NCBI GenBank assembly: GCA_048882045.1
Contig: JBHLRZ010000014.1
Span: 1 to 64,000, forward strand
From: Candidatus Thorarchaeota archaeon
GTDB taxonomy: Archaea; Asgardarchaeota; Thorarchaeia; Thorarchaeales; Thorarchaeaceae
Length of the DNA stretch: 64,000 nucleotides
Direction of reading: 5' to 3'
Of the stretch, positions 34,665 through 45,598 are shown in pieces (positions within the stretch are counted from its first letter, which is position 1; each line of letters opens with the position of its first letter). A program made the translations under genes and the position numbers. The notes beneath the pieces are model-generated. The model saw nothing but the letters and a program-made list of their open reading frames with translations, did not search any database and had not been told where the DNA came from.

Positions 34665-35990
34665 CTATTCAGTAACAGCATGTGCTTGAAGAGCGATGCG
34701 GGGTTTCAGCTCCCTGACTGGGATTCCGGTTTCCTTGGAAACTCGAAATACATCTTCAGCCTCGGGTTTGATGTTCAAAATACTTCCATCAGCACTACGG
34801 GAAACCTTCACTCTTACCATGTAGTCCTGTCCATCAATCTCAAGACTACACACGATGGTTTCTCGGACAGCTTTGAGTCGTTTCCAGGTTGTATAGCGTA
34901 TTCCTGTGGTTCCAAGACTCTTAATCATGACATCTGCGATGCCTTTCAGTCCAGTCTTGGCAGCTATCACCTCGACTACATGACAAGGACGGTTCTTCTT
35001 TCCAATGGCAGGGATGATCGTGACATCATACGCCAACCCCTCTGAGAGAAGCGTGTCGAATAGGGCACCTAATGTTTCGCCATCAACATCATCGACGTTG
35101 GTCTCAATCACTATGACTTCATCCTCATTCCAAGTATCGATTAGATCTGGTTTCTCCTTTGTTTCAGCCGGTTCTTTGGCTGGTTTCTCCTTTTTCTTTT
35201 CAACGGGCTGAACCGGAGCTACCTCCTCTGATAGAACTGTTTCTCCGATAACGATTGATAGCATGTTTGGAATCTTGCCTAGACTTCGAGTACCAAAACC
35301 AAAACCCTGATTCTGTGCAACGAAATTATCATGCGAGTCAACGAATTTGTCAACTATAGCTATTAGTATGGCCGCACCTGTTGGTGTCAGAACCTCTGTC
35401 TTTGCTTCGCCATTGTGATGAGGGACCTTATGTGCTGCTAGCATCTCAGCCACTGCTGGAACTGGTACTTCAAGCTCCCCATGCTCAGTCTTGATTTTTC
35501 CATTACCAACCGCAACCTTTGTCGAAAGAATCTCGGTATCATCAAACAGTCCCAATCGGTCAAGCAAGTATGCAGTACCAACTAGATCGAGGACTGTGTC
35601 CACAGAACCTGTTTCATGAAGATGAAGCTCATCGATGGGTATGTTATGGGCTTTGCTTTCAGCCTCCAATATCACATCAAGACCGTTCAAAGCGACTTCT
35701 CTTCCCTTCGAAGATAGTTCAACCTCTTCAGCAACGGATTGGATGACCTCCCTAAGTTCGAAAGGACTTAGTGAAATCTCAGCATTTCTTGTTACCTGCA
35801 GTTGACGTCCTGTAATCCCAGAGAAAGAGTGAGACACTACATTCATGCGAAACGAAGGGTCATGAATAAGGAGGCTAGCAGCGACAGGAAGAAGAACATT
35901 ATCTTCACCGACGAGGTCAGTGAGTGCTGCAAGGAACATGTCTCCTGCTGCTCCAGCAGTTGATACATCTATGAGTATGGTCTTCTTCAG
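34665..35990 (-). CDS. larC: Nickel-pincer cofactor nickel insertase LarC (probable CTG start)
   Basis: ILIDVSTAGAAGDMFLAAL, HLHETGSVD, HG.L.VPVPA, TPTGAA, IETNVDD, GKKNRP, TTGIR. Confidence 0.88.
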   Translation of the reverse strand: MKKTILIDVSTAGAAGDMFLAALTDLVGEDNVLLPVAASLLIHDPSFRMNVVSHSFSGITGRQLQVTRNAEISLSPFELREVIQSVAEEVELSSKGREVALNGLDVILEAESKAHNIPIDELHLHETGSVDTVLDLVGTAYLLDRLGLFDDTEILSTKVAVGNGKIKTEHGELEVPVPAVAEMLAAHKVPHHNGEAKTEVLTPTGAAILIAIVDKFVDSHDNFVAQNQGFGFGTRSLGKIPNMLSIVIGETVLSEEVAPVQPVEKKKEKPAKEPAETKEKPDLIDTWNEDEVIVIETNVDDVDGETLGALFDTLLSEGLAYDVTIIPAIGKKNRPCHVVEVIAAKTGLKGIADVMIKSLGTTGIRYTTWKRLKAVRETIVCSLEIDGQDYMVRVKVSRSADGSILNIKPEAEDVFRVSKETGIPVRELKPRIALQAHAVTE

Positions 35991-36098: not shown

Positions 36099-36878
36099 TC
36101 ATATTGTAACTCGATTTCGCCACTGTTCGAAGATGGCCATATACATGCATTCCTGAGGTGGGATCCACATCTCAGAAGAATCAAAGGACTGATCCACAAA
36201 CTCGACAGGCGCATCTCTGATTAGTGCAGCTGGAATCGACTCATCTGACTCGCCCATCACAGCTGTGCATGCTGATGCAAGATTGTCAGCGATGGCTCGT
36301 CTAGTAATCCTCAGTACGTTACCAAACAGGTCTGTCCTACCTCTATCATCTGCAACCGGTCGAAAGCCAGCATTTCCAAGAGCCATACCAACATTTCCCA
36401 GTCTCAGAGGTTGAGTGCGACTGTCAATGACAAGAACTCCGATAGTCTTTCCAAGTCTGTTCTTGACCTCATTCCTAATTCTCTCCGCACTCTCTCTAGG
36501 GTTGGCTGGCAGGAGAGAGGCATACCCTGGAGGGACATTGGACTTGTCGACTCCAGCATTTGCCATCAGGGTGTTACTCTTGATTGTCAAGACAACGTGA
36601 GGAATACCTCCCAGGATTTCATCTGCTTCGTTCAATACGAGTTCTGCAACCTCAGGAATCATTTCGTATTTCCTCGCAAGATCTCGCGCTTTTTCTGAAG
36701 CGACAACATTCGAGAGCTTGACTACTTGGCCTTCAGTTGTACCCAGGGGAGTTTCAGCCACACCGAGGATGTCATTGTCCTGAATCTCGATTCCCTTATT
36801 GGTGAGACCTTCGAGAAGTACATCTAGGAGATTGTCTTCTTCAGTAATGATTCGAGTCTTGATTGGAAAAACCTGCAT
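36099..36878 (-). CDS. cofE: Coenzyme F420-0:L-glutamate ligase
   Basis: ANAGVDKSN, IDSRTQPLRLG, D.RG..DLFG..L..T..AIAD, MGES.E. Confidence 0.88.
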   Translation of the reverse strand: MQVFPIKTRIITEEDNLLDVLLEGLTNKGIEIQDNDILGVAETPLGTTEGQVVKLSNVVASEKARDLARKYEMIPEVAELVLNEADEILGGIPHVVLTIKSNTLMANAGVDKSNVPPGYASLLPANPRESAERIRNEVKNRLGKTIGVLVIDSRTQPLRLGNVGMALGNAGFRPVADDRGRTDLFGNVLRITRRAIADNLASACTAVMGESDESIPAALIRDAPVEFVDQSFDSSEMWIPPQECMYMAIFEQWRNRVTI

Positions 36879-36920: not shown

Positions 36921-38333
36921 TCATCCACCGCGAGATTTTTGGAGCTTCATCCTTTCGGACATGATGCACTTGTCACCCTTCCGACCCCCCATTGGACATC
37001 TCTTTGTGCCCATGGAGTTCATGCATCTTGCAGCAACCGCAGCTCCCATTGCTAGACCATCTTCCACGAAGAGGATATCGTGCATATCAGTCCAAAGAGA
37101 TCCATCATTAAGATGTAGATTTTCTGTGATGAGTTTGGGTTTCTGTCCAGTAATGATTGCACGCCCCGTAAGTCCCAAAGATGTATCTTTTAGAATTAGC
37201 CCCTCTGATTCGATAATCGATATCAAGCGTTGAACGATTCCAGCCTGGATCACATCGATCACTGTAAGCAGTGTATTGGTGTCACTAGCATACACAATCG
37301 ATTTCCCAAGTTTAGTAAGGTCATCTAGCCCAGATCCGTTGGTTCCTGCATCAACGCCAACTAACGTAGTTCCTGACTCTTCAGCAGCGCTTGCGTCTAC
37401 AGGAACAGTACCGAACCGTTCGACTGATTTTGAAACCTTCTCAACCCTGATGATGCTATGGGCTTTCTCTTCCCATTTTGAATCAATCTGCAATTGCTGC
37501 GACTTGTTAGATTGTGGGATGTCTAGAACACTACCAGTCTTTGCATCTATCAGTCCAGTGCCCTTTGCCAATGCATCCGGTATTGCCCCTGCAAGCCCAG
37601 CAAAGGAGCCAATTGTTCTGGCATAGGGGAACCCGTCGTCTGTCACACGTCCTGCAAGAGTGGTCCCAAAATCAAGTGTAAAAACAGGATTTCGAAAATC
37701 AATGTCAGTGCTCTTTGCTGCACCCTTCAGTCCGGCACTGACAAGCTCTCCCTCCATCTCGTTTGCAACAATCTCAGTATTTGAAGGAGGAAGTGAACTC
37801 GCTACAGCCCCATCAAAGTACACCTTCTTTAACCAAGTATAGTCACGAATATCCGGAGGAAGATTCTCTGCTGAGATTGATGCAGTCATTTTCCTTGGAG
37901 GAATTCCTGCATTAAGACATCCATCAGCCAGAGCCTGCACAATAGTTCCTACTTCACTAGGACTAGCAAAACTTGCAGTCACTCCAGTTGAGCGGACCAC
38001 AAAGTGGAGGTCACGCTCAATGTCAAGTCGCGCTTTCTTGAGAGTAGTTCTGAGAATGTCTGACACCAGTTCCGATACTGACTCTCTAGTAAGCTCCACA
38101 CCAAAGACAGTTCTTCCAAACACTTCTTCCTCTTCTTTGGGATGACGGACATCTCGAGTCATACGAACCTCTTTTTCGATTTCATAGATTTCAGCGGTTT
38201 CTAGATTTGTAGTCACAAGGACACACTTTGTGGTCGTGTTACCCAATTCAACAGATGCAACTGTGTAGAAAGGACCTTTCCGAAGTGATGATACTCCTAT
38301 AGAACGAGGTCGTACTACTCGATCTTTTTTCAC
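36921..38333 (-). CDS. Methanogenesis marker 14-like ASKHA ATPase (diol-dehydratase reactivase-like)
   Basis: VASVELGNTTTKC, FVVRSTGV, ANEMEGEL, DFRNP..LDFGTTLAG, DGLA.GAAV.ARCMNS. Confidence 0.85.
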   Translation of the reverse strand: MKKDRVVRPRSIGVSSLRKGPFYTVASVELGNTTTKCVLVTTNLETAEIYEIEKEVRMTRDVRHPKEEEEVFGRTVFGVELTRESVSELVSDILRTTLKKARLDIERDLHFVVRSTGVTASFASPSEVGTIVQALADGCLNAGIPPRKMTASISAENLPPDIRDYTWLKKVYFDGAVASSLPPSNTEIVANEMEGELVSAGLKGAAKSTDIDFRNPVFTLDFGTTLAGRVTDDGFPYARTIGSFAGLAGAIPDALAKGTGLIDAKTGSVLDIPQSNKSQQLQIDSKWEEKAHSIIRVEKVSKSVERFGTVPVDASAAEESGTTLVGVDAGTNGSGLDDLTKLGKSIVYASDTNTLLTVIDVIQAGIVQRLISIIESEGLILKDTSLGLTGRAIITGQKPKLITENLHLNDGSLWTDMHDILFVEDGLAMGAAVAARCMNSMGTKRCPMGGRKGDKCIMSERMKLQKSRGG

Positions 38334-38350
38334 AATCTGTCACTTCCATA

Positions 38351-39286
38351 TTAGACTAGTTTCTTGAACGGATGGTCATCAGAGGGCTCAATACCAAATT
38401 CGAGACTATAAGACTCTGCAGCAAACACATCACACATGGCAACAACTGGAAACACTCGTTCTGCATTAGCTATTGGGCCATAGAGCACAAAGTCAGCACC
38501 CATCATCTGTACAATAAGATTTGAAGCAACATCTGCAGTCCGATATCCTTCTGGATTCGCCTTCTTGTGTTTTCTCAACCAGGACCACGATGAGGGAGCA
38601 TTGTGTACTCCGGATCCTGTTGGAAGTCCATAGACAGTCTTTGACACAAATGTGAATGCCGCAGCTGTACCAGCACCTGCACCCATTGCAGTCACTGCAG
38701 TATCTATCAGGGGTTTGGTGATTCCAAGTTCCTTACTCAATGGTAGTAGTCCCTTGTCTAGTTCAAGTGCACCGGTGTCCAACACAGTTCTTCGCCCCCC
38801 GATAGATGGGTCTTGGGGATTGAATGCAAGGATGATTGCACATTCATGTTGGATACTCTTGAGAGCCTCAATCTCCTCCTTAGTTGCAGAAACGTTGAGA
38901 GAGTTATAGATGGCTCTGTCTAGAAGACCTATCTCCTCAGCATGAGTCAAACCAGCGATCCGAACTAGAGGTTCTGTCGAATCAATGAGGAACGGAGCAT
39001 CAGTAATGTCAGTCACGAAATCGATGTACTTCTTCAGTGCATCCTCGGTTTCCGAAAATATTTGGATTAAAGCAGGATTGCCAGTGAGTTGTGACATCTC
39101 ATCCTGTTTCTCAATCAGAGCGGTTGCTGCCTTCTTATCGAAGACTCCCTTCTTGGTGTCCGTAACGATCTTGTGCCCTCCATAGAAGATAGTACCAGCA
39201 AGAACCGTAGCAGTTTCACCCGGGTTTCCACCTATCTTCACTCCACCTACATTATGGATGACCTGTTCTTTCTCAAAGACAAACAT
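38351..39286 (-). CDS. mtrH: Methyl-H4MPT:corrinoid methyltransferase MtrH
   Basis: MF.FEKEQ...GGVKIGG.PGE..TVLAGTIFY.GH, PFLIDST, IYNS, GSGVHNAPSSW, GADFVLYGPI. Confidence 0.9.
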   Translation of the reverse strand: MFVFEKEQVIHNVGGVKIGGNPGETATVLAGTIFYGGHKIVTDTKKGVFDKKAATALIEKQDEMSQLTGNPALIQIFSETEDALKKYIDFVTDITDAPFLIDSTEPLVRIAGLTHAEEIGLLDRAIYNSLNVSATKEEIEALKSIQHECAIILAFNPQDPSIGGRRTVLDTGALELDKGLLPLSKELGITKPLIDTAVTAMGAGAGTAAAFTFVSKTVYGLPTGSGVHNAPSSWSWLRKHKKANPEGYRTADVASNLIVQMMGADFVLYGPIANAERVFPVVAMCDVFAAESYSLEFGIEPSDDHPFKKLV

Positions 39287-39290
39287 TGCA

Positions 39291-39977
39291 TCAACCCTCT
39301 CTCGCGTATAGAATGGTCCCTGTGTCTTCTTCCTGAACTTCAATAATAGTGGAAGAGGGGTTCTCTGACACTATAGCATGTTTCATCTGACTCATGATCA
39401 TTGAGGATGTGGAATCGAGAATGACACCATACTCGGGCAACACTATCACATCACCGGTAATCGATGGTGTTCTGGTTGATTTCACTGGAGCCCTGAACTC
39501 AACCCACATAGCTCCCCCTGGAAACTCACCTGGGTCTTTGGTCAATAACTCTCCTGCTTTGGATGCGATTTCGGTAGGATTGATCTTGTTGATCATATCG
39601 ATGAGTTCAATCTGCTCGCGGAATTGATCAATTCCTTCAAGGGGAACGTTCTCAATATACGGAATTGCTCCTTCAGCATCGATGATCTTTCGGGTTTCTC
39701 TGTCAACTCCGTTATGATAGAGTGCACGCAATGACCTGCCAGTAAGATGTCCAGGAACCTCTGGACCAGTGAGAATCAGAAATCGAATATTCGGATTGGA
39801 GATGACATTGATGATGACACGTTCAATTCCAATATTCTCAGTCTTGCAGGTACCGATGATTGCGCACTCAGTATCAACATCAATCTTCTTACCCAGTGTA
39901 CAAATGGCTACACATTTGGAGGGGTCTCTAACTTCGAAATCTCCTTGGACCGGAGGCCATTCGGGTTCAGGATTCAT
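39291..39977 (-). CDS. mtrA: MtrA corrinoid protein, soluble (no TM anchor), with C-terminal extension
   Basis: WPPVQGDF, GTCKTENIGIE, NPNIRF, EVPGHLTG (cobamide His ligand), GAIPYIEN. Confidence 0.9.
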   Translation of the reverse strand: MNPEPEWPPVQGDFEVRDPSKCVAICTLGKKIDVDTECAIIGTCKTENIGIERVIINVISNPNIRFLILTGPEVPGHLTGRSLRALYHNGVDRETRKIIDAEGAIPYIENVPLEGIDQFREQIELIDMINKINPTEIASKAGELLTKDPGEFPGGAMWVEFRAPVKSTRTPSITGDVIVLPEYGVILDSTSSMIMSQMKHAIVSENPSSTIIEVQEEDTGTILYAREG

Positions 39978-39992
39978 TTTATTGCATCCCTC

Positions 39993-40910
39993 CTATTCAA
40001 ACGATGGGGGTTCAAAGAGTTCTCTGTCAATGTCCAATACACTGTTTGCTTCGGCTATGGTTGCGGCTATGGCATTCGAAATCAGAGCTGCTGATGTGAA
40101 TATCTCTTTGGCATGAGATAATGAGCCAAACATTATGGCATCAGTTGCAAAGAGTTGTGCAGCCACAGTCGCTGCAACCACCGTCGAGATTCTTGTCGTG
40201 TCATCATCCAATCCGGGTTGTCGGATGAATCGCCAAGCGGAAGGTGCATTGTGAGGAGCTAGACATGTTGGAAGTCCCAATTCTGATTTCACAGCAATGG
40301 TGGTCCTATGCTCCAGTCCATAGCCAGAACCTACGGGCATCGTAGCCGGATCGACGATGGTTTTCTTTATACCCAATGACTCGGAGAATGTTAGTACATC
40401 ACGTATTGTATCCATTCTATCTGGGAGCGTAGTGGCCTTTGGTGACCACCCAAGGATGACTGCCATGTCCAATGCACTAGCTTTGAGTTTGTCCTTCTCA
40501 TCATCCTTCATTGACAGATTGATGGAGTTGAAGACCGCTCGGTCAGTGAGTCCAGTTTCTTCGCAGTATTCAATTGCACGAATGCGAGCGTTTGCATTTA
40601 TTGACTCGAACATGAAGGGTCCTTCAAGATTCTCTGCTAGCCAAGAGAGATGATTCTCCATTGCCCGAGGAGTTCTACCAAATGCTTGAATCATCAATGG
40701 GAGTCCAGTTTTGTCAGACATTAATTGTGCAGTGTCAATCCATGACTTCGCGACTTCTTTGTCGAATATACCCTCTCGAGTGTCCTCCATTATTGACTGA
40801 CCCTTGAAGAAGAGACCCCCAATCAGAACTGTGGGATTCTCACCAGGATTACCACCAATAGGAATACCTCCAAAGTCAAACACTTGTTGCTCTTTCTTGA
40901 AGACAAACAC
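39993..40910 (-). CDS. Divergent MtrH paralogue
   Basis: F.FKKEQ...GGNPGENPTVLIG, VFNS, APHNAPSAW; PFMFES in place of PFLIDS. Confidence 0.82.
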   Translation of the reverse strand: MFVFKKEQQVFDFGGIPIGGNPGENPTVLIGGLFFKGQSIMEDTREGIFDKEVAKSWIDTAQLMSDKTGLPLMIQAFGRTPRAMENHLSWLAENLEGPFMFESINANARIRAIEYCEETGLTDRAVFNSINLSMKDDEKDKLKASALDMAVILGWSPKATTLPDRMDTIRDVLTFSESLGIKKTIVDPATMPVGSGYGLEHRTTIAVKSELGLPTCLAPHNAPSAWRFIRQPGLDDDTTRISTVVAATVAAQLFATDAIMFGSLSHAKEIFTSAALISNAIAATIAEANSVLDIDRELFEPPSFE

Positions 40911-40914
40911 GATA

Positions 40915-41865
40915 TCACCTCTCAACCTTCCGTCTAGGATACAAATTAGCACGTTTGACAAGCTCAACAATACTCTCTGGCCAACCTATGCCCATCAAGT
41001 GTAGTCCATTGACGCCATCGATCTCACGTATCACCTCTATGGTTTCAAGGGCGATTTGAATACCTTCCGCTTTCATTGCCTGAATCTTGGCCTGCTCCTC
41101 TTCTTGACCTTTTGCAGAATCATCAAGTCGTCGAATGAACTCATCAGGAACCTGAATATCTGGAACATAGTCATTCATGAAGTGCGCCATCTCTGAGTCA
41201 CGAAGCGGGATTATACCCACCAAAATGTTCAGTTTGTTGTCAGTTTGTCCCATGAATCTCTGTAAGAGAACAGGATCAAAGATCGCTTGAGTCTGAAAGA
41301 ACTGTGCTCCCGCTTCGAATTTCGCTTTCATTCGACGTTGTTGATTTTCTAGTGATGCATCATTTGGATTGATGGTTGCTCCGAGATAGAACTCTGGTGT
41401 TCCCTCCAACTCATCACCCACAGAGTCAACTCCAGTGGAGAGATGTTTCGCCAGAGCAAGAGCCTCAAGAGTATCTAGATCGTTGACCATCTTTACATGA
41501 GGATGCGTTCCGAACCGAGTAGGGTCACCAGCCATGATGAGAAGATTACGCACACCAAGTGCGTATGCGCCATAGAGCTCGCTCTGAAATGCGATCTGGT
41601 TTCGGTCCCTTGTTGTCAGATGGAGGATAGGTTCAGCGCCTGCCTGAAGTACAAATGTGGAACATACACTGCTGCTCATGGTTGGAACTCCACGGGCATT
41701 GTCAGGTACATTAATGGCATCACAGAAATCACGTATCATTTCAACACGATTTATTACTATTGATGAATCCGCCCCATGAGGTGCTCCAATCTCTCCCGTA
41801 ACTACGAAATCACCTCTATCTAGTAATTGCTTGAGTCGTGTTTCGAGCAGTTTGCAGACCTCCAC
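40915..41865 (-). CDS. metF: Methylenetetrahydrofolate reductase (MetF family); start at GTG 41865 or CTG 41850
   Basis: FVVTGE, DAINVPDN, PILHLTTRDRN, GDP, K.EAGAQFFQTQ, GIIP, GLHLM. Confidence 0.88.
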   Translation of the reverse strand: MEVCKLLETRLKQLLDRGDFVVTGEIGAPHGADSSIVINRVEMIRDFCDAINVPDNARGVPTMSSSVCSTFVLQAGAEPILHLTTRDRNQIAFQSELYGAYALGVRNLLIMAGDPTRFGTHPHVKMVNDLDTLEALALAKHLSTGVDSVGDELEGTPEFYLGATINPNDASLENQQRRMKAKFEAGAQFFQTQAIFDPVLLQRFMGQTDNKLNILVGIIPLRDSEMAHFMNDYVPDIQVPDEFIRRLDDSAKGQEEEQAKIQAMKAEGIQIALETIEVIREIDGVNGLHLMGIGWPESIVELVKRANLYPRRKVER

Positions 41866-41896: not shown

Positions 41897-43714
41897 TTAA
41901 TTGGTTTTGTTAGAAATCCAGCCCTTCTTTATCGCAATACTAAATGCAACTAATGACATGGATGATACTGTGGCAATCATTATTGGGATGGATACAATCA
42001 GTGGAGGAGAGGACATGGTTGTATGAGGACTGGAACCTATCTTGAAATCGGGGTAGTAATGATAGTCTGGATTGGCAGTAAGATTGTAGATGTCACCAAC
42101 ATCATATCCTGTAAGAATGAAAGGCCCACAAGTAACATGAGGTGATTCAGCGTCAAATATTGGGTTCCATCTATCCCAGCTAGAAAATCCAATTCCTGAG
42201 AAGATATGTTTTGGAATTATGAATTCATAGACAATGTTGTAGAAGTGCCAATACGACTCACTACTGAACTCCATCACTACTTTATACATGGAGGGAGCAT
42301 ATACAGACATTAGATCGATGAAGGAGTCTGCAGCGAGATTTCCATAGGTCCTGCTCTCCAGTAGATAGATGAAAGTATATGCAACGTCTACTGCAGTTAA
42401 CGGAGTACCATCTGACCACGTTGCATTACGTAGTATGTTAAAAGTAAAACGCATGTTACCTTCAGGAACTGTTGGATTATCACGATTGGTTTCGACAAGC
42501 ACAGACTCAGCAAGGTCAGGAATTGGGTTCATGTCAGGACCACGAGAATATAGAGAGGAATATAGGTTTTCAAGAATCATTCTTGAGTATATCGAGTATG
42601 GTAATGAAAAGTTGAGGGCATAGAAATTGAAGGTATCAGGTTCTAAGCTAAGGGCAATACCTACGGTACCCCCTTGAGTATCGTTAATCTTAAGCATCTT
42701 TCTCAAAGTCCACGGACCTGAGATGTATCGATAGATATCAGCAACATGACCTTTGAACTTGTCAGTTCTATATCCTTGGTAGATATTTGATTGACATATC
42801 ACCAATTGCGGAACGTTGTAATGCAGAATCCTTTGAATTTCAACAGAAGCTTCAAGGACTTCTTCGTAGGTTCTCCCTGTTCGGAATTTTTCCATCCAGA
42901 AATCATAAGTTTCGTTTTTAAAGTTCGAAAAGTCAAAATTAAGATTCAAACCGAAATCATCATAGTAATAAAAACTCTTGAAAGCGTAAGTCATATCCCA
43001 AGAGGGGGGAAATTCCCACCCAGGCAATATCCAGCTCTCTATGTAGATCCAGTTTGTATCGATATGTAGAGAGTGAAGGGCTTCGATAGATAGATCAGCG
43101 ATTTCGAGACCGTGATATGCATAATATCCTTCAATAGTAAATGGTTCACCATTCGGTGCATTTCTAAAACCTGTTGTACTGTTCATTGTAAAGCCAAGTT
43201 CATCGAGGAGTGCATTACCCCTCTCTATGTCAGCTCCATAGTAATGATTTTCAAGGAGTTCTTCTGCGCACCACCTGTTTACAGAAGGAAGTAGAGAATC
43301 ATGCGGTGATGCATGACCTCGGTAAATATCATCTACAGCTTTTATCTTATTGAATGCAAAAGCAAATGCTCTTCGAAAACCAGAGATGTTCAGTGGGTAA
43401 TGTTCGCAATTGAGAAGGATAGAAGTGTAGCCATTTCTTGGATACTCGAATATCTCGACATTTGGATCAGCATCGAGTAAATTGAAGCTTGAGAAACCAA
43501 CATCCCCGATGTCGATTACTCCACTTTGAAGGGCAATGGTTCTTTGGTTATTTCCAACAATTACTTTGTAGACTACTTTGTCGATGAATGGTCCGATTCG
43601 GATGTCCTCTGGAATATCTATTGAAGCAACGAGGGGGAATTGAAGAGAGAGAAACAGAATGGTGCAACAGAAAGACAGCACACTCAGTGACCTCCTCAAC
43701 ACAAACCACCACAT
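41897..43714 (-). CDS. ABC peptide/nickel substrate-binding protein (family 5), C-terminally anchored
   Basis: FRRAFAFAFNK, PDLAES, WSDG.PLTA.DV.YTF, GPF; C-terminal TM. Confidence 0.85.
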   Translation of the reverse strand: MWWFVLRRSLSVLSFCCTILFLSLQFPLVASIDIPEDIRIGPFIDKVVYKVIVGNNQRTIALQSGVIDIGDVGFSSFNLLDADPNVEIFEYPRNGYTSILLNCEHYPLNISGFRRAFAFAFNKIKAVDDIYRGHASPHDSLLPSVNRWCAEELLENHYYGADIERGNALLDELGFTMNSTTGFRNAPNGEPFTIEGYYAYHGLEIADLSIEALHSLHIDTNWIYIESWILPGWEFPPSWDMTYAFKSFYYYDDFGLNLNFDFSNFKNETYDFWMEKFRTGRTYEEVLEASVEIQRILHYNVPQLVICQSNIYQGYRTDKFKGHVADIYRYISGPWTLRKMLKINDTQGGTVGIALSLEPDTFNFYALNFSLPYSIYSRMILENLYSSLYSRGPDMNPIPDLAESVLVETNRDNPTVPEGNMRFTFNILRNATWSDGTPLTAVDVAYTFIYLLESRTYGNLAADSFIDLMSVYAPSMYKVVMEFSSESYWHFYNIVYEFIIPKHIFSGIGFSSWDRWNPIFDAESPHVTCGPFILTGYDVGDIYNLTANPDYHYYPDFKIGSSPHTTMSSPPLIVSIPIMIATVSSMSLVAFSIAIKKGWISNKTN

Positions 43715-43789
43715 TGTCCTTGGCTGATGATTGATATTATGATTTTTATACGAGCAATCTGGGACTATGCTCCCCGAAATTGCATATGT

Positions 43790-45598
43790 CTACTCAGAGC
43801 GTTTTCTGTCCATTATCAAAAGCACTATGATACCAGCAGTGACAACTACATAAGTTGTGGAAAGAGTCATTGCTACAATTTGAAATATGGGATCAGATGT
43901 TACAGGCGGAAAAGTGTTGATGATGTCAGGTGTTATAGGTTGTCTTTGTGGGAGCCAATGATATAAGGGATTTACCGTCAATTCATAGAACTCACCAAGT
44001 TCGAAATCTGTCAATACAAAGGGTCCACTTGTCACATGCGGTTCTTCCGGATCAAAGACAGGGTTCCAAGTATTCCAGCCCTCGTAGCCAATTGCTGTAA
44101 AGATGTGTTTTGGAATAATATAGTCATACGCAATCTTGCTGAAATGCCAATATGACTCAGAACTGAATTCAAAGACCACGCGATATGTAGATGGTGCGTA
44201 TACAGCAACAAGATCATTCAACGAACTTCCAGCTGGATTCCCGTAAGCTCTGCTTTCTAGTTGGTACAGGAATGTGAACGATATGTCTTCGGCTGTGAGC
44301 GACTGACCGTCTGACCATGAGGCATTTTGTAGAATGTCAAATGTATAGCGCATGTGACCATCAGGAATCATAGAATTGTTGCTATGGGTTTCAGTAAGCA
44401 TAGATATTGCCAAGTCTGGTAGAGGATTCATATTTGGATCCCGTGAGTAGAGTGATGAATAGAGGTTCTCAAGAATTAAGTGAGAGTACATCAAGTTAGT
44501 GACGTAGATGTTGAAACTGTATGGCTCCTGACCAAGGCCAATATTAAACAAGCCACCGTATGTACCATCGACTCTGTGAATTCGTCTCAAAGTCCATGGA
44601 CCGGAGAAATATCGAAAATGGTCTTCAATATGACCTTGGAACTGGTCAGTTCTAATAGCTTCGAGATAGTTTGGCTGACATACTACAATGCGAGGAACAT
44701 TGTAATGCAGAATTTTCTGAATCTCGGTTGAAGCTTCATAGACCTCTTCGTATGTCTTTCCATTGTAATATTTTTCAGTCCAATATGTAAAGGTATCATT
44801 TCTATAGTTGGAAAGACTATCTTCCCAAATCATAGTATCATATCCAAAAGTCCAGCTTATAACGACCATATCATATGAGGGAGGAAGAATCCATGGCCAC
44901 CACCATGAATAGTACACATAACAATCAACATTCAGTGCGGAAAGAGCTTCACAAGCGAGTTGGGCAATCGTCCCAGATATGAAAGAACTTGAGGGAGAGT
45001 AGTACACTATGACAGTAAATGGTTCGCCATTCGGTGCGTCCCTGAATCCTGTCGTGGAATTCAATGTGAAACCAAGTTCATCAAGGATTGCATTGCCTCT
45101 CTCTATGTCAGCCTCATAGTAATGATATTCAAGAAGATCTTCTGCGCACAACCTATTGGTCAATGGAACCACTGAATCATGCAGTGTTGCATGACCTTCG
45201 TAAACGTAGTTTAACGCCTTCGTCTTGTTGAAAGCAAAAGCGAAAGCCCGTCTAAAGCCAGTGATGTTTAGTGGATACTTGTTACAATTGATAGAAATTG
45301 AGTTATACCCATTTCTTGGACATTCTAGGATGTCAATATCAGGATTCTCAAGTAATTCCGAAGTTTGTGTGTAATAATTCTCAGAGATTCTCCCAATATC
45401 GAGTACTCCTGATTGGAGAGCGAGTAGAGTGCCAGATCCAATGATTACTTTGTAGACTACACTGTCGATAAATGGGCCATAACGAATGTCTTCAGGAATA
45501 TCAATTGACACCACAAGTGGGAGCTGAAGAAATAGGACTAGGAAGATGCAACACAATGATAGTGCACTCCGTGACCTCCTCAACACGTTCCACCTCAT
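43790..45598 (-). CDS. ABC peptide substrate-binding protein (family 5), tandem paralogue
   Basis: Same motifs; closely similar to 41897..43714. Confidence 0.85.
   Translation of the reverse strand: MRWNVLRRSRSALSLCCIFLVLFLQLPLVVSIDIPEDIRYGPFIDSVVYKVIIGSGTLLALQSGVLDIGRISENYYTQTSELLENPDIDILECPRNGYNSISINCNKYPLNITGFRRAFAFAFNKTKALNYVYEGHATLHDSVVPLTNRLCAEDLLEYHYYEADIERGNAILDELGFTLNSTTGFRDAPNGEPFTVIVYYSPSSSFISGTIAQLACEALSALNVDCYVYYSWWWPWILPPSYDMVVISWTFGYDTMIWEDSLSNYRNDTFTYWTEKYYNGKTYEEVYEASTEIQKILHYNVPRIVVCQPNYLEAIRTDQFQGHIEDHFRYFSGPWTLRRIHRVDGTYGGLFNIGLGQEPYSFNIYVTNLMYSHLILENLYSSLYSRDPNMNPLPDLAISMLTETHSNNSMIPDGHMRYTFDILQNASWSDGQSLTAEDISFTFLYQLESRAYGNPAGSSLNDLVAVYAPSTYRVVFEFSSESYWHFSKIAYDYIIPKHIFTAIGYEGWNTWNPVFDPEEPHVTSGPFVLTDFELGEFYELTVNPLYHWLPQRQPITPDIINTFPPVTSDPIFQIVAMTLSTTYVVVTAGIIVLLIMDRKRSE

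What the first reader, a model, noticed from the sequence alone, without database searches (positions are those of the whole stretch)
36921..38333. Methanogenesis marker 14 kept with only MtrA/MtrH suggests it is a corrinoid chaperone or reactivase
Seen: ASKHA phosphate loops (ELGNTTTK, DFGTT), 17 nt downstream of mtrH. Known: marker 14 has no settled function and resembles the diol-dehydratase reactivase ATPase that exchanges damaged B12. Inference: its retention in a minimal operon lacking Mcr and membrane Mtr points to ATP-dependent cobamide loading or repair on MtrA.
Basis: partly seen in the sequence, partly recalled or inferred. Interest (0 to 1): 0.7.

Follow-up and report, generated by a model that had tools for sequence, protein, structure and literature searches.

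The report
Marker 14, candidate MtrA cobamide activase
A non-methanogenic Asgard (Thorarchaeota) archaeon keeps "methanogenesis marker 14", an ATP-binding actin-fold protein, directly behind a membrane-free vitamin-B12 methyl-transfer module. That gene link is already published, but modelling places the protein on the B12-bearing face of MtrA, which suggests, and makes testable, that it keeps that cofactor active.

Summary
Window 36921-38333 (-) encodes a full-length marker 14 protein (DUF2114/TIGR03285) with intact ASKHA ATP-binding motifs, starting 17 nt after mtrH. It sits in a seven-gene run, metF-mtrH'-mtrA-mtrH-marker14-cofE-larC, that is conserved in 21 Thorarchaeota loci.

The genome (93% complete) has no McrA or MtrE, and its MtrA has lost the membrane anchor.

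Marker 14 follows canonical MtrA rather than Mcr in 602 sampled genomes. This link was already published (Borrel 2014; Adam 2022), and this scan has met the same operon in at least eight other Thorarchaeota genomes.

New here:
- A confident model (pLDDT 93.7) shows a generic ASKHA fold with no special likeness to the diol-dehydratase reactivase (Z 13.1, rank 35).
- A co-fold with MtrA passes its controls (0.70 against 0.00). It puts marker 14 on the corrinoid face of MtrA, touching the cobalt-ligand His77 loop.
- Three Mtr-bearing methanogen genomes and M. jannaschii lack RACo/RamA-type activases.

Best reading (about 0.45): an MtrA-dedicated ATPase that reactivates the cobamide, more likely by reduction than by exchange. 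No biochemistry exists. The three conserved cysteines are unplaced in 3D, and three Mtr-positive genomes lack the gene.

The parts
36921..38333 (-). Marker 14 gene (DUF2114 / TIGR03285 / arCOG04866 / 'm26'), 470 aa, ASKHA-fold putative ATPase
   Evidence: PF09887 639.6 bits and TIGR03285 622 bits. AF2 model with pLDDT 93.7 and pTM 0.92. ASKHA structural matches at Z 15-18.
38226..38252 (-). Phosphate-1 loop VELGNTTTK (residues 28-36)
   Evidence: Seen in the translation. E29, G31, N32, T34 and K36 are invariant or at least 90% conserved in 22 sequences. The loop sits in the beta1-beta2 hairpin of the model.
37659..37676 (-). Phosphate-2 loop LDFGTT (residues 220-225)
   Evidence: Seen in the translation. 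D221, G223, T224 and T225 are conserved.
37863..37961 (-). Helix 125-141 and loop 146-157, the predicted MtrA-docking surface. It holds near-invariant Cys139 (codon 37917-37919).
   Evidence: Interface residues of the co-fold. Cys139 is 95% conserved. The interface as a whole is no more conserved than the rest of the protein (0.549 against 0.531).
36966..37025 (-). C-terminal segment holding invariant Cys437 and near-invariant Cys456
   Evidence: Alignment A1. Their spatial relation to Cys139 could not be measured because no coordinates were available.
38351..39343 (-). mtrH (canonical type). The likely true start is the ATG at 39286, 4 nt after the mtrA stop.
   Evidence: TIGR01114 404.8 bits, above its 271.4 cut-off. 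The family model aligns from residue 20 of the long ORF.
39291..39977 (-). mtrA, a soluble form of 228 aa. It keeps the cobalt-ligand His77 and the CKTEN and GAIPYIEN motifs. It has no C-terminal membrane helix.
   Evidence: PF04208 195 bits. Alignment A3 shows the invariant residues, a soluble tail in Thorarchaeota and a hydrophobic helix in methanogens. Residues were mapped to His84, Glu54 and 109-GAIP of methanogen MtrA.
39993..40970 (-). Second, divergent MtrH-family methyltransferase (mtrH')
   Evidence: PF02007 240 bits. TIGR01114 238 bits, below its cut-off.
40915..41865 (-). MetF-like methylene-pterin reductase
   Evidence: PF02219 115.6 bits.
36099..36878 (-). CofE-like gamma-glutamyl ligase, 42 nt downstream of marker 14
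   Evidence: PF01996 235 bits and TIGR01916 191.5 bits. Conserved at this position in Thorarchaeota loci.
34665..35939 (-). LarC-like nickel-insertion protein, the last conserved gene of the run
   Evidence: PF01969 295.5 bits. Conserved at this position in Thorarchaeota loci.

Best explanation
Marker 14 is a soluble ASKHA-fold ATPase dedicated to the corrinoid protein MtrA. It docks, through helix 125-141 and loop 146-157, onto the face of MtrA that carries the exposed corrin ring. That face comprises the cobalt-ligand His77 loop, the CKTEN loop and the GAIPYxEN 'meander'.

Proposed action: it uses ATP to return cobamide that has been oxidised to Co(II) to the active Co(I) state. In this role it would be a functional analogue of RACo/RamA from a different ASKHA family.

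In this Thorarchaeon it would be the activating enzyme of a four-part soluble methyltransferase system: MtrH', MtrA, MtrH and the activase, coupled to MetF. In methanogens it would do the same for membrane-bound Mtr.

Shown here: family membership, fold, intact ATP-binding motifs, synteny, co-occurrence, and a co-fold that passes its controls.

Inferred: ATP hydrolysis, that the act is a reduction, and where the electron comes from. Possible sources are a metal centre on Cys139/Cys437/Cys456 or an external ferredoxin.
For: (1) Synteny. The order metF-mtrH'-mtrA-mtrH-marker14-cofE-larC is identical in all 21 Thorarchaeota loci that have enough flanking DNA. In Methanobacteriales, marker 14 lies just downstream of mtrH, the last gene of the mtr operon.

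(2) Co-occurrence in Asgard. In 301 genomes, marker 14 is in 73 of 76 genomes of the window's family and in 1 of 224 others. That one genome also has a high-scoring MtrA.

(3) Co-occurrence in Halobacteriota. In 301 genomes, marker 14 and MtrA agree in 287. Where MtrA and McrA disagree (43 genomes), marker 14 follows MtrA in 39. Six McrA+ MtrA- genomes lack it.

(4) Literature. Methanomassiliicoccales, which have Mcr but no Mtr, lack marker 14, and it was proposed to be involved in Mtr function (PMC4153887). Marker m26 is described as 'tied to Mtr' (PMC9635834).

(5) Co-fold with MtrA residues 1-172. The score is ipSAE 0.70 (three runs: 0.70, 0.66, 0.72) against a best control of 0.00. That mark was reached by 58 of 80 solved complexes and 2 of 110 mismatched pairs. 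The runs agree in at least 84% of contacts, and the partner's pLDDT is at least 86. No homologue of marker 14 has a solved structure, so recall of a known complex is unlikely.

(6) Position of the interface. The MtrA residues involved are 10-13, 46, 48-49, 75-77, 103-105 and 109-110. These correspond to the cobalamin-contacting Asp17, Thr53, Asn55, His84 and 109-GAIP segment of solved MtrA.

(7) An open gap. [quoted passage not shown] The RACo/RamA ASKHA domain (PF14574) is not found in the Methanothrix, Methanothermococcus and Methanobacterium genomes searched, nor in the M. jannaschii control. All of these have Mtr and marker 14.

(8) Fold. All ASKHA nucleotide motifs are conserved. ATP-coupled electron-transfer ATPases are among the tied top structural matches: 9gai_C (Z 17.3, rmsd 3.3, 251 aligned) and 4ehu_B (Z 16.4).
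Against: - There is no recognisable Fe-S or flavin domain. Only three conserved cysteines exist, and their positions in 3D were not measured.
- The predicted docking surface on marker 14 is no more conserved than the rest of the protein (0.549 against 0.531, permutation p 0.36).
- The MtrA surface involved is conserved for its own reasons, and co-folding may favour an empty cofactor cleft.
- Three Halobacteriota genomes have MtrA, MtrE and McrA but no marker 14, even with a profile search. So the gene is not strictly required wherever Mtr exists. The completeness of those genomes is unknown.
- The window's genome has its own RACo-type protein, which could serve MtrA instead.
- 22 other Asgard genomes carry MtrA-domain proteins without marker 14.
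- The structural neighbours are a broad tie that includes small-molecule kinases such as AnmK (Z 18.2) and MK0840 (Z 18.1).
- No experimental data on any family member were found.
Confidence: 0.45

Rival explanations
1. Marker 14 is an ATP-driven cobamide loading or exchange chaperone for MtrA, the first reader's DdrA/EutA-like idea. It would open or hold apo- or damaged-holo-MtrA so that a cobamide can be inserted or swapped, with no electron transfer.
For: The synteny, co-occurrence and co-fold evidence is the same as for the best explanation. Recombinant MtrA was obtained cobalamin-free and had to be unfolded and refolded with cobalamin to load it (PMC4915002). This hints that loading may need help in vivo. 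The absence of any Fe-S domain fits a purely mechanical chaperone. EutJ (Z 15.8) and DdrA (Z 13.1) appear among the ASKHA structural matches.
Against: DdrA is not a close match (rank 35), and Pfam finds no DDR or EutA signal at E <= 10. Known exchange reactivases serve adenosylcobalamin radical enzymes whose cofactor is chemically destroyed. Methyl-transfer corrinoids are normally repaired by reduction (established knowledge, not tested here). The solved MtrA site is described as 'largely preformed' and took up cobalamin without a helper. No DdrB-like small-subunit gene is seen among the conserved genes of the cluster.
Confidence: 0.2
2. Marker 14 works with Mtr but not on the cofactor's redox or loading state. 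It could be an assembly or regulatory factor gating MtrA between its methyltransferase partners, or a kinase acting on a small molecule or protein of the pathway.
For: The closest structural matches by Z are kinases and non-redox ASKHA proteins: AnmK 18.2, MK0840 18.1, FtsA 17.3, CoaX 17.2, Kae1/TsaD about 16.5. Small proteins that regulate Mtr by binding at the MtrA site are known, namely MtrI and MtrR (PMC12774963; PMC13370731 in the list). The cluster also holds the cofactor-related genes cofE and larC.
Against: The predicted contact lies right on the His-ligand loop and the corrin face. The protein keeps about 50% identity between Thorarchaeota without membrane Mtr and methanogens with it. 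That argues for a role independent of MtrCDE, sodium pumping or CoM. No substrate-binding signature of any kinase family was detected.
Confidence: 0.2
3. Marker 14 has no functional tie to MtrA. The neighbourhood in Thorarchaeota and Methanobacteriales is inherited gene order from a methanogenic ancestor, and the co-fold is a false pass.
For: In Methanosarcinales, Methanococcales and Methanothrix loci, the gene is not within 8 kb of mtr and its neighbours vary. Kin share gene content, so co-occurrence counts overstate the independence of the genomes. Two of 110 mismatched pairs reached the co-fold mark. Three Mtr-positive genomes lack the gene.
Against: Thorarchaeota lost Mcr and MtrB-G yet kept marker 14 in 73 of 76 sampled family genomes, always beside mtrA and mtrH. 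Lineages that have Mcr without Mtr lack it. Retention at about 50% identity to methanogen proteins, with all motifs intact, implies selection.
Confidence: 0.1

Closest known systems
Methanogenesis marker 14 / DUF2114 / arCOG04866 / 'm26' of methanogens (e.g. MMP1223), described as Mtr-associated by Borrel et al. 2014 (PMC4153887) and Adam et al. 2022 (PMC9635834)
   Same: Same family: 622-640 bits to the family models and about 50% identity to methanogen representatives, with all conserved motifs and cysteines present. Same position after mtrH as in Methanobacteriales. The Thorarchaeia case itself is already mentioned by Adam et al..
   Different: The host has no Mcr and no membrane Mtr subunit E, and its MtrA is soluble. 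So the label 'methanogenesis marker' no longer applies. No function has been published. The MtrA-docking model and the activase reading are added here.
RACE-type reductive activases of corrinoid enzymes (RACo of CoFeSP, PDB 3zyy/4c1n; RamA of Methanosarcina)
   Same: An ASKHA ATPase that would partner a corrinoid methyl-carrier protein and bind its corrin face. The gene is clustered with the methyltransferases it would serve. RACo appears among the Foldseek matches (3zyy_X, E 2.2e-6, rank 17).
   Different: No PF14574/PF17651 signal. No N-terminal Fe-S domain or RACo middle domain. RACo is not among the top 50 by Z. This is a separate ASKHA family with its own insertions. Marker 14 occurs in methanogens that lack RACE proteins.
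Diol/glycerol dehydratase reactivase DdrAB/GdrAB (PDB 2d0o) and EutA
   Same: ASKHA-type ATPase core. The proposed job is rescuing a B12 enzyme.
   Different: Only generic fold similarity: 2d0o_A has Z 13.1, rmsd 4.2, 271 aligned, rank 35. No sequence-family match. No DdrB-like partner seen. The client is a methyl-transfer corrinoid protein, not an adenosylcobalamin radical enzyme.
HgdC/BcrAD-type 'archerase' ATPases (activators of 2-hydroxyacyl-CoA dehydratases; ATPase subunits of class I benzoyl-CoA reductases)
   Same: A compact ASKHA ATPase that couples ATP hydrolysis to low-potential electron transfer. These are among the tied best structural matches: 9gai_C (Z 17.3, rmsd 3.3, 251 of 264 aligned), 4ehu_B (Z 16.4), 1hux_A (Z 15.6).
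   Different: Marker 14 is nearly twice as long, with two large insertions (about residues 142-216 and 258-384). From my recollection of the 1hux structure, the helix equivalent to the HgdC cluster helix begins GLAGAIPDA, with no cysteine. The conserved cysteines (139, 437, 456) lie elsewhere. Dimerisation and cluster binding were not tested.

Membership tests
DUF2114 / TIGR03285 methanogenesis marker 14 | Full-length match to the family models above their curated cut-offs | tested here: met
   PF09887 639.6 bits (cut-off 25), profile 1-449 of 449. TIGR03285 622.1 bits (cut-off 274), profile 1-445 of 446.
DUF2114 / TIGR03285 methanogenesis marker 14 | Conserved family residues: phosphate-1 ELGNTTTK, NEMEGEL, phosphate-2 DFGTT, GLAGAIxD, GxTGR...K, EDGLAxGA, and Cys139/437/456 | tested here: met
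   All are present in the window protein and invariant or at least 90% conserved in alignment A1 of 22 sequences.
DUF2114 / TIGR03285 methanogenesis marker 14 | Restriction to methanogens, the reason for the name 'marker' | tested here: not met
   The host genome has no McrA or MtrE. Its closest relatives are named Thorarchaeota. This affects the name only, not the homology.
DUF2114 / TIGR03285 methanogenesis marker 14 | Association with mtr genes (Borrel 2014; Adam 2022) | tested here: met
   17 nt after mtrH here. Same order in 21 Thorarchaeota loci and after mtrH in Methanobacteriales. Co-occurrence is given.
ASKHA (actin / Hsp70 / sugar kinase) ATPase superfamily | Two RNase-H-like domains with phosphate-1, phosphate-2 and adenosine motifs | tested here: met
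   AF2 model with pLDDT 93.7. 150 chains at Z >= 8, with the top at Z 17-18 over 250-314 residues. Foldseek probability 1.00. The motifs are seen.
RACE reductive activases (RACo/RamA, COG3894) | RACo-type ASKHA domain (PF14574) together with the RACo middle domain (PF17651) | tested here: not met
   Pfam scan at E <= 10 returns only DUF2114. The genome's genuine RACo-type protein scores 219.8 and 130.6 bits on these models.
RACE reductive activases (RACo/RamA, COG3894) | Fe-S domain that delivers the electron ([2Fe-2S] in RACo, two [4Fe-4S] in RamA) | tested here: not met
   No ferredoxin-like domain by Pfam. Only three scattered conserved cysteines. Whether they bind a metal cannot be tested here.
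Diol dehydratase reactivase DdrA / EutA | Sequence-family match (DDR or EutA domains) or a distinctly closest structure | tested here: inconclusive
   No Pfam match at E <= 10. 2d0o_A scores Z 13.1 at rank 35, which is generic ASKHA similarity.
HgdC/BcrAD archerases | Homodimer bridged by a [4Fe-4S] cluster on two cysteines per subunit | not testable with these tools
   Structural similarity is Z 15.6-17.3.
Canonical MtrA (the proposed client) | Cobalt-ligand His in GxEVxGH, the CKTEN loop with the Glu partner, and the GAIP(F/Y)xEN meander | tested here: met
   H77, E47 and G103-N110 are invariant in alignment A3 of 24 sequences. They were mapped to His84, Glu54 and residues 109-116 of solved MtrA.
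Canonical MtrA (the proposed client) | C-terminal transmembrane anchor | tested here: not met
   The window's MtrA and the 11 other Thorarchaeota MtrA sequences examined all end in a polar, conserved soluble tail. Methanobacteriales MtrA end in a hydrophobic helix.

The most novel reading that the evidence does not exclude
Marker 14 founds a second class of ATP-driven corrinoid reductive activases, independent of the RACE family. It would carry its own cysteine-bound metal centre (Cys139/437/456) next to the MtrA docking surface. It would be the long-missing activase of the Mtr complex in methanogens. The Thorarchaeial MtrA/MtrH/marker 14 set would then be a natural, fully soluble minimal system in which to show this.
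Probability: 0.3. Interest if true: 0.8.

Novelty: new variant of a known kind. Interest (0 to 1): 0.55.

Why it matters
Mtr is the only energy-conserving step of hydrogenotrophic methanogenesis. Its cobamide must be kept in the super-reduced Co(I) state, and how oxidised Mtr is repaired is still stated as unknown in the 2025 structural work.

Marker 14 is one of the last near-universal methanogen genes with no function. If it is the MtrA activase, several things follow:
- It would explain why lineages without RACo/RamA can run Mtr.
- It would add a new ASKHA family to the ATP-coupled electron-transfer or cofactor-repair enzymes.
- It would offer a possible target for methane mitigation.

The Thorarchaeial operon matters practically. 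Its MtrA has no membrane anchor, so the client, its two methyltransferases and the candidate activase should all be expressible as soluble proteins.

If the hypothesis fails, the finding reduces to a known gene in a known remnant operon.

Tried and rejected
- AF2 from the single sequence gave an unusable model (pLDDT 32.7). A 48-row alignment solved this.
- A sequence search of the PDB at E <= 10 found nothing.
- A Pfam scan at E <= 10 found no second family.
- Specific kinship to DdrA is rejected (Z 13.1, rank 35). RACo is not in the top 50 by Z in either VIA search, which does not exclude distant kinship.
- I tested whether the predicted docking surface of marker 14 is unusually conserved. 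It is not (p 0.36).
- I looked for informative conserved neighbours where marker 14 is not next to mtr. Neighbours vary: FrhB-like protein, thioredoxin, PTH2, HhH-GPD glycosylase, radical SAM protein, primase. Only the thioredoxin in two Methanolobus loci recurs.
- I used the short DUF2114-like family (about 400 aa) as an independent context test. Contigs are short. Two related contigs show split-MetE-like neighbours, and one MSBL1 contig shows none. This is too thin to use.
- The sigma-70 promoter and terminator scan gave no more sites than shuffled sequence, and it is not suited to archaea.
- The context of the genome's RACo-type gene is uninformative: a Usp gene upstream and no corrinoid protein nearby.
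For these I rely on PMC4153887.
- Literature searches for any functional study of the family (DUF2114, marker 14, MMP1223, arCOG04866, ASKHA+MtrA) found none.
Full report
**1. What is there**

The minus-strand ORF 36921-38333 (GTG start, 470 aa) matches Pfam DUF2114 end to end (639.6 bits). It also matches NCBIfam TIGR03285 'methanogenesis marker 14' (622 bits, cut-off 274).

The gap to the mtrH stop codon is exactly 17 nt.

The genes on the same strand, in order, are:
- a MetF-like reductase (40915-41865)
- a divergent MtrH-family gene (39993-40970)
- mtrA (39291-39977)
- canonical mtrH (38351-39343, probably starting at 39286)
- marker 14
- a CofE-like ligase (36099-36878)
- a LarC-like gene (34665-35939)

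Spacers from mtrH' to cofE are 4-42 nt; the listed metF and mtrH' ORFs overlap, and the larC gap is larger.

The closest homologues are named Thorarchaeota. The genome is 3.63 Mb and 93.4% complete. It has one MtrA, three MtrH-family genes, and no McrA or MtrE.

**2. The client protein**

The window's MtrA keeps every residue that defines a cobamide-binding MtrA: His77 in GPEVPGH, the CKTEN loop with Glu47, and GAIPYIEN. These columns are invariant in 24 sequences. They correspond to His84, Glu54 and the 109-GAIP meander of the solved methanogen proteins (PMC4915002).

Methanobacteriales MtrA ends in a hydrophobic helix. The window's MtrA and the 11 other Thorarchaeota MtrA sequences examined instead end in a conserved polar tail. 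The module is therefore fully soluble.

**3. Conservation of the neighbourhood**

A genome-collection scan returned 80 loci. All 21 Thorarchaeota or Promethearchaeota loci show the same gene order as far as their contigs reach. In Methanobacterium and Methanobrevibacter loci, marker 14 follows mtrH of the mtr operon. In Methanosarcinales, Methanococcales and Methanothrix it is not within 8 kb of mtr, and its neighbours vary.

**4.

*Asgard, 301 genomes*:
- Marker 14 is in 73 of 76 genomes of the window's family, and MtrA is in 71 of 76. Both are present in 69. The mismatches are fragmentary bins.
- Among the other 224 genomes, marker 14 occurs once (G009). That genome also has a high-scoring MtrA and no MtrE.
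- Twenty-two further Asgard genomes carry weaker MtrA-domain hits (84-162 bits), mostly inside ORFs of about 500 aa, and have no marker 14. So the protein goes with canonical MtrA, not with every MtrA-like domain.

*Halobacteriota, 301 genomes*:

| marker 14 | MtrA | McrA | genomes |
|---|---|---|---|
| + | + | + | 151 |
| + | + | - | 33 |
| + | - | + | 3 |
| + | - | - | 4 |
| - | + | + | 6 |
| - | + | - | 1 |
| - | - | + | 6 |
| - | - | - | 97 |

Where MtrA and McrA disagree (43 genomes), marker 14 follows MtrA in 39.

Caveats apply. Kin are not independent, and bin completeness in this sample is unknown. Three genomes with MtrA, MtrE and McrA lack marker 14 even in a profile search.

None of this is new in principle. 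Borrel et al. 2014 reported that the Mtr-less Methanomassiliicoccales lack marker 14 and that the gene lies near mtr in several orders, and they proposed a role in Mtr function. Adam et al. [quoted passage not shown] This scan has also met the operon in at least eight other Thorarchaeota genomes.

**5. Fold**

With a 48-row alignment, AF2 gives pLDDT 93.7 and pTM 0.92. The model is a two-domain ASKHA fold with two large insertions (about 142-216 and 258-384) and a C-terminal tail.

Structural neighbours form a broad tie:

| match | Z |
|---|---|
| AnmK | 18.2 |
| MK0840 | 18.1 |
| FtsA | 17.3 |
| benzoyl-CoA-reductase ATPase subunit 9gai_C (rmsd 3.3, 251 aligned) | 17.3 |
| CoaX | 17.2 |
| Kae1/TsaD | about 16.5 |
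| HgdC-type activators | 15.6-16.4 |
| EutJ | 15.8 |

The diol-dehydratase reactivase scores Z 13.1 at rank 35. RACo appears only in the Foldseek list (rank 17, E 2e-6). No PDB or second Pfam family is detectable by sequence. So 'resembles DdrA' holds only in the sense that both are ASKHA proteins.

All nucleotide-binding motifs are conserved, as are Cys139, Cys437 and Cys456. I could not measure their spatial relation. From ASKHA topology I infer, but have not shown, that Cys139 (end of helix 125-141) and Cys456 (just before the last helix) lie close together.

**6. Does it touch MtrA?**

- The score was ipSAE 0.70 (three runs: 0.70, 0.66, 0.72), and the best of three controls was 0.00.
- That mark was reached by 58 of 80 solved complexes and 2 of 110 mismatched pairs.
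- The runs agree in at least 84% of contacts, and the partner's pLDDT is at least 86.
- These counts hold only roughly, because my own alignments were used.
- No related complex is solved, so recall from memory is unlikely.

The MtrA side of the interface is the corrin-bearing face: residues 10-13, 46, 48-49, 52-53, 56, 75-77 (including His77), 103-105, 107 and 109-110. The marker 14 side is helix 125-141, loop 146-157, residues 171-174 and residue 465.

Two things temper this. The marker 14 surface is no more conserved than the rest of the protein (0.549 against 0.531, p 0.36). The MtrA surface is conserved (0.78 against 0.67, p 0.017), but it would be conserved anyway. The model supports binding; it does not show it.

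**7. Which mechanism?**

Corrinoid methyl carriers that cycle through Co(I) are occasionally oxidised to Co(II). In the known systems, an ASKHA ATPase (RACo, RamA) repairs them by making an uphill reduction possible. This is established knowledge.

For Mtr, no such enzyme is assigned. [quoted passage not shown] Yet the RACo/RamA domain is not found in the Methanothrix, Methanothermococcus or Methanobacterium genomes searched, nor in the M. jannaschii control. All of these carry Mtr and marker 14. I also recall, but could not verify in the library, reports from around 1990 (Kengen and colleagues) of ATP-dependent reductive activation of this methyltransferase in extracts (searches gave only the citation).

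In the window, the cluster has the canonical layout of a corrinoid methyltransferase system: two methyltransferases, one corrinoid protein and one ASKHA ATPase.

I therefore rank the readings as follows:

| reading | confidence |
|---|---|
| reductive activation | 0.45 |
| ATP-driven cobamide loading or exchange | 0.2 |
| another Mtr-linked role (regulation, assembly, kinase) | 0.2 |
| no functional tie | 0.1 |

The main weaknesses of the top reading are the lack of an evident electron-carrying domain, the presence of a separate RACo-type protein in this genome, and the three Mtr-positive genomes without marker 14.

**8. Verdict**

The sequence observation is right. The co-occurrence argument is right but already published. 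The DdrA analogy is weak. The functional idea is plausible and now has one more leg: a controlled co-fold onto the cofactor face, plus the RACE-gap argument.

The protein is a known family in a known remnant operon. What may be new is the kind of enzyme it is, namely a non-RACE ASKHA activase for MtrA. This Thorarchaeial soluble system is a convenient place to test that.

Noticed in passing
window 39291-39470 (MtrA residues about 170-228); loci L007-L027: The window's MtrA and the 11 other Thorarchaeota MtrA sequences examined replace the methanogen C-terminal membrane helix with a conserved polar tail of about 55 residues (…HPS..IEV…GT.L.G.E). I confirmed only the loss of the helix.
   Followed up: partly
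Asgard sample, e.g. G006:C2:24108-24626, G017:C12:34869-35366, G038:C1:1763237-1763731: Twenty-two Asgard genomes outside the window's family carry MtrA-domain hits (84-162 bits), mostly inside ORFs of about 500 aa, and have no marker 14. These look like a distinct, fused MtrA-like corrinoid protein family, apparently served by some other activase.
   Followed up: no
G009:C91:8958-10274 and G009:C86:1976-2458: One genome of a different Asgard family (80% complete) has marker 14 (592 bits) and an MtrA scoring higher than any Thorarchaeial one (221 bits). It has no MtrE. This is either a second Asgard lineage with the soluble system or a binning artefact.
   Followed up: partly
G419, G427, G430 (Halobacteriota sample): Three genomes have MtrA, MtrE and McrA but no marker 14, even with a profile search at E <= 1. 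G430 has contigs longer than 650 kb. These are possible natural knockouts and are worth identifying.
   Followed up: partly
L088:2551-4836 and L089:1708-4976: A short, divergent DUF2114-like family (about 390-410 aa, 20-30% identity, aligning only to residues about 181-430) is transcribed divergently from split-MetE or core-methionine-synthase-like genes in two related contigs. Adam et al. 2022 mention these as twilight-zone m26 homologues.
   Followed up: partly
L056:7518-7919 and L036:7557-7988: In two Methanolobus genomes, a thioredoxin gene ends 4-10 nt before marker 14 on the same strand. Given the three conserved cysteines, this hints at redox control or thiol chemistry.
   Followed up: no
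G000:C25:31509-32801 (L090:7510-8802): The genome's RACo-type protein (430 aa) has the RACo middle and ASKHA domains but no N-terminal Fe-S domain. It is overlapped upstream by a universal stress protein gene, and no corrinoid protein gene lies nearby.
   Followed up: partly
G000:C5:65877-66791 (L091:7877-8791): A third, stand-alone MtrH-family gene (225 bits) lies away from any MtrA, between a peptidase M24 gene and an unannotated ORF.
   Followed up: no
window 41897-45598: Two tandem family-5 solute-binding-protein genes (605 and 602 aa) sit directly upstream of metF on the same strand, 31 nt away. Pfam matches only the middle part of the family model at their N-termini.
   Followed up: no
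window 39524-39538 (MtrA residues 147-151): The KDPGA motif of methanogen MtrA reads KDPGE here and RNPGP in other Thorarchaeota. From memory of Fuchs et al. 2021, this motif is the Connectase recognition site. I did not search whether Thorarchaeota keep a Connectase.
   Followed up: no
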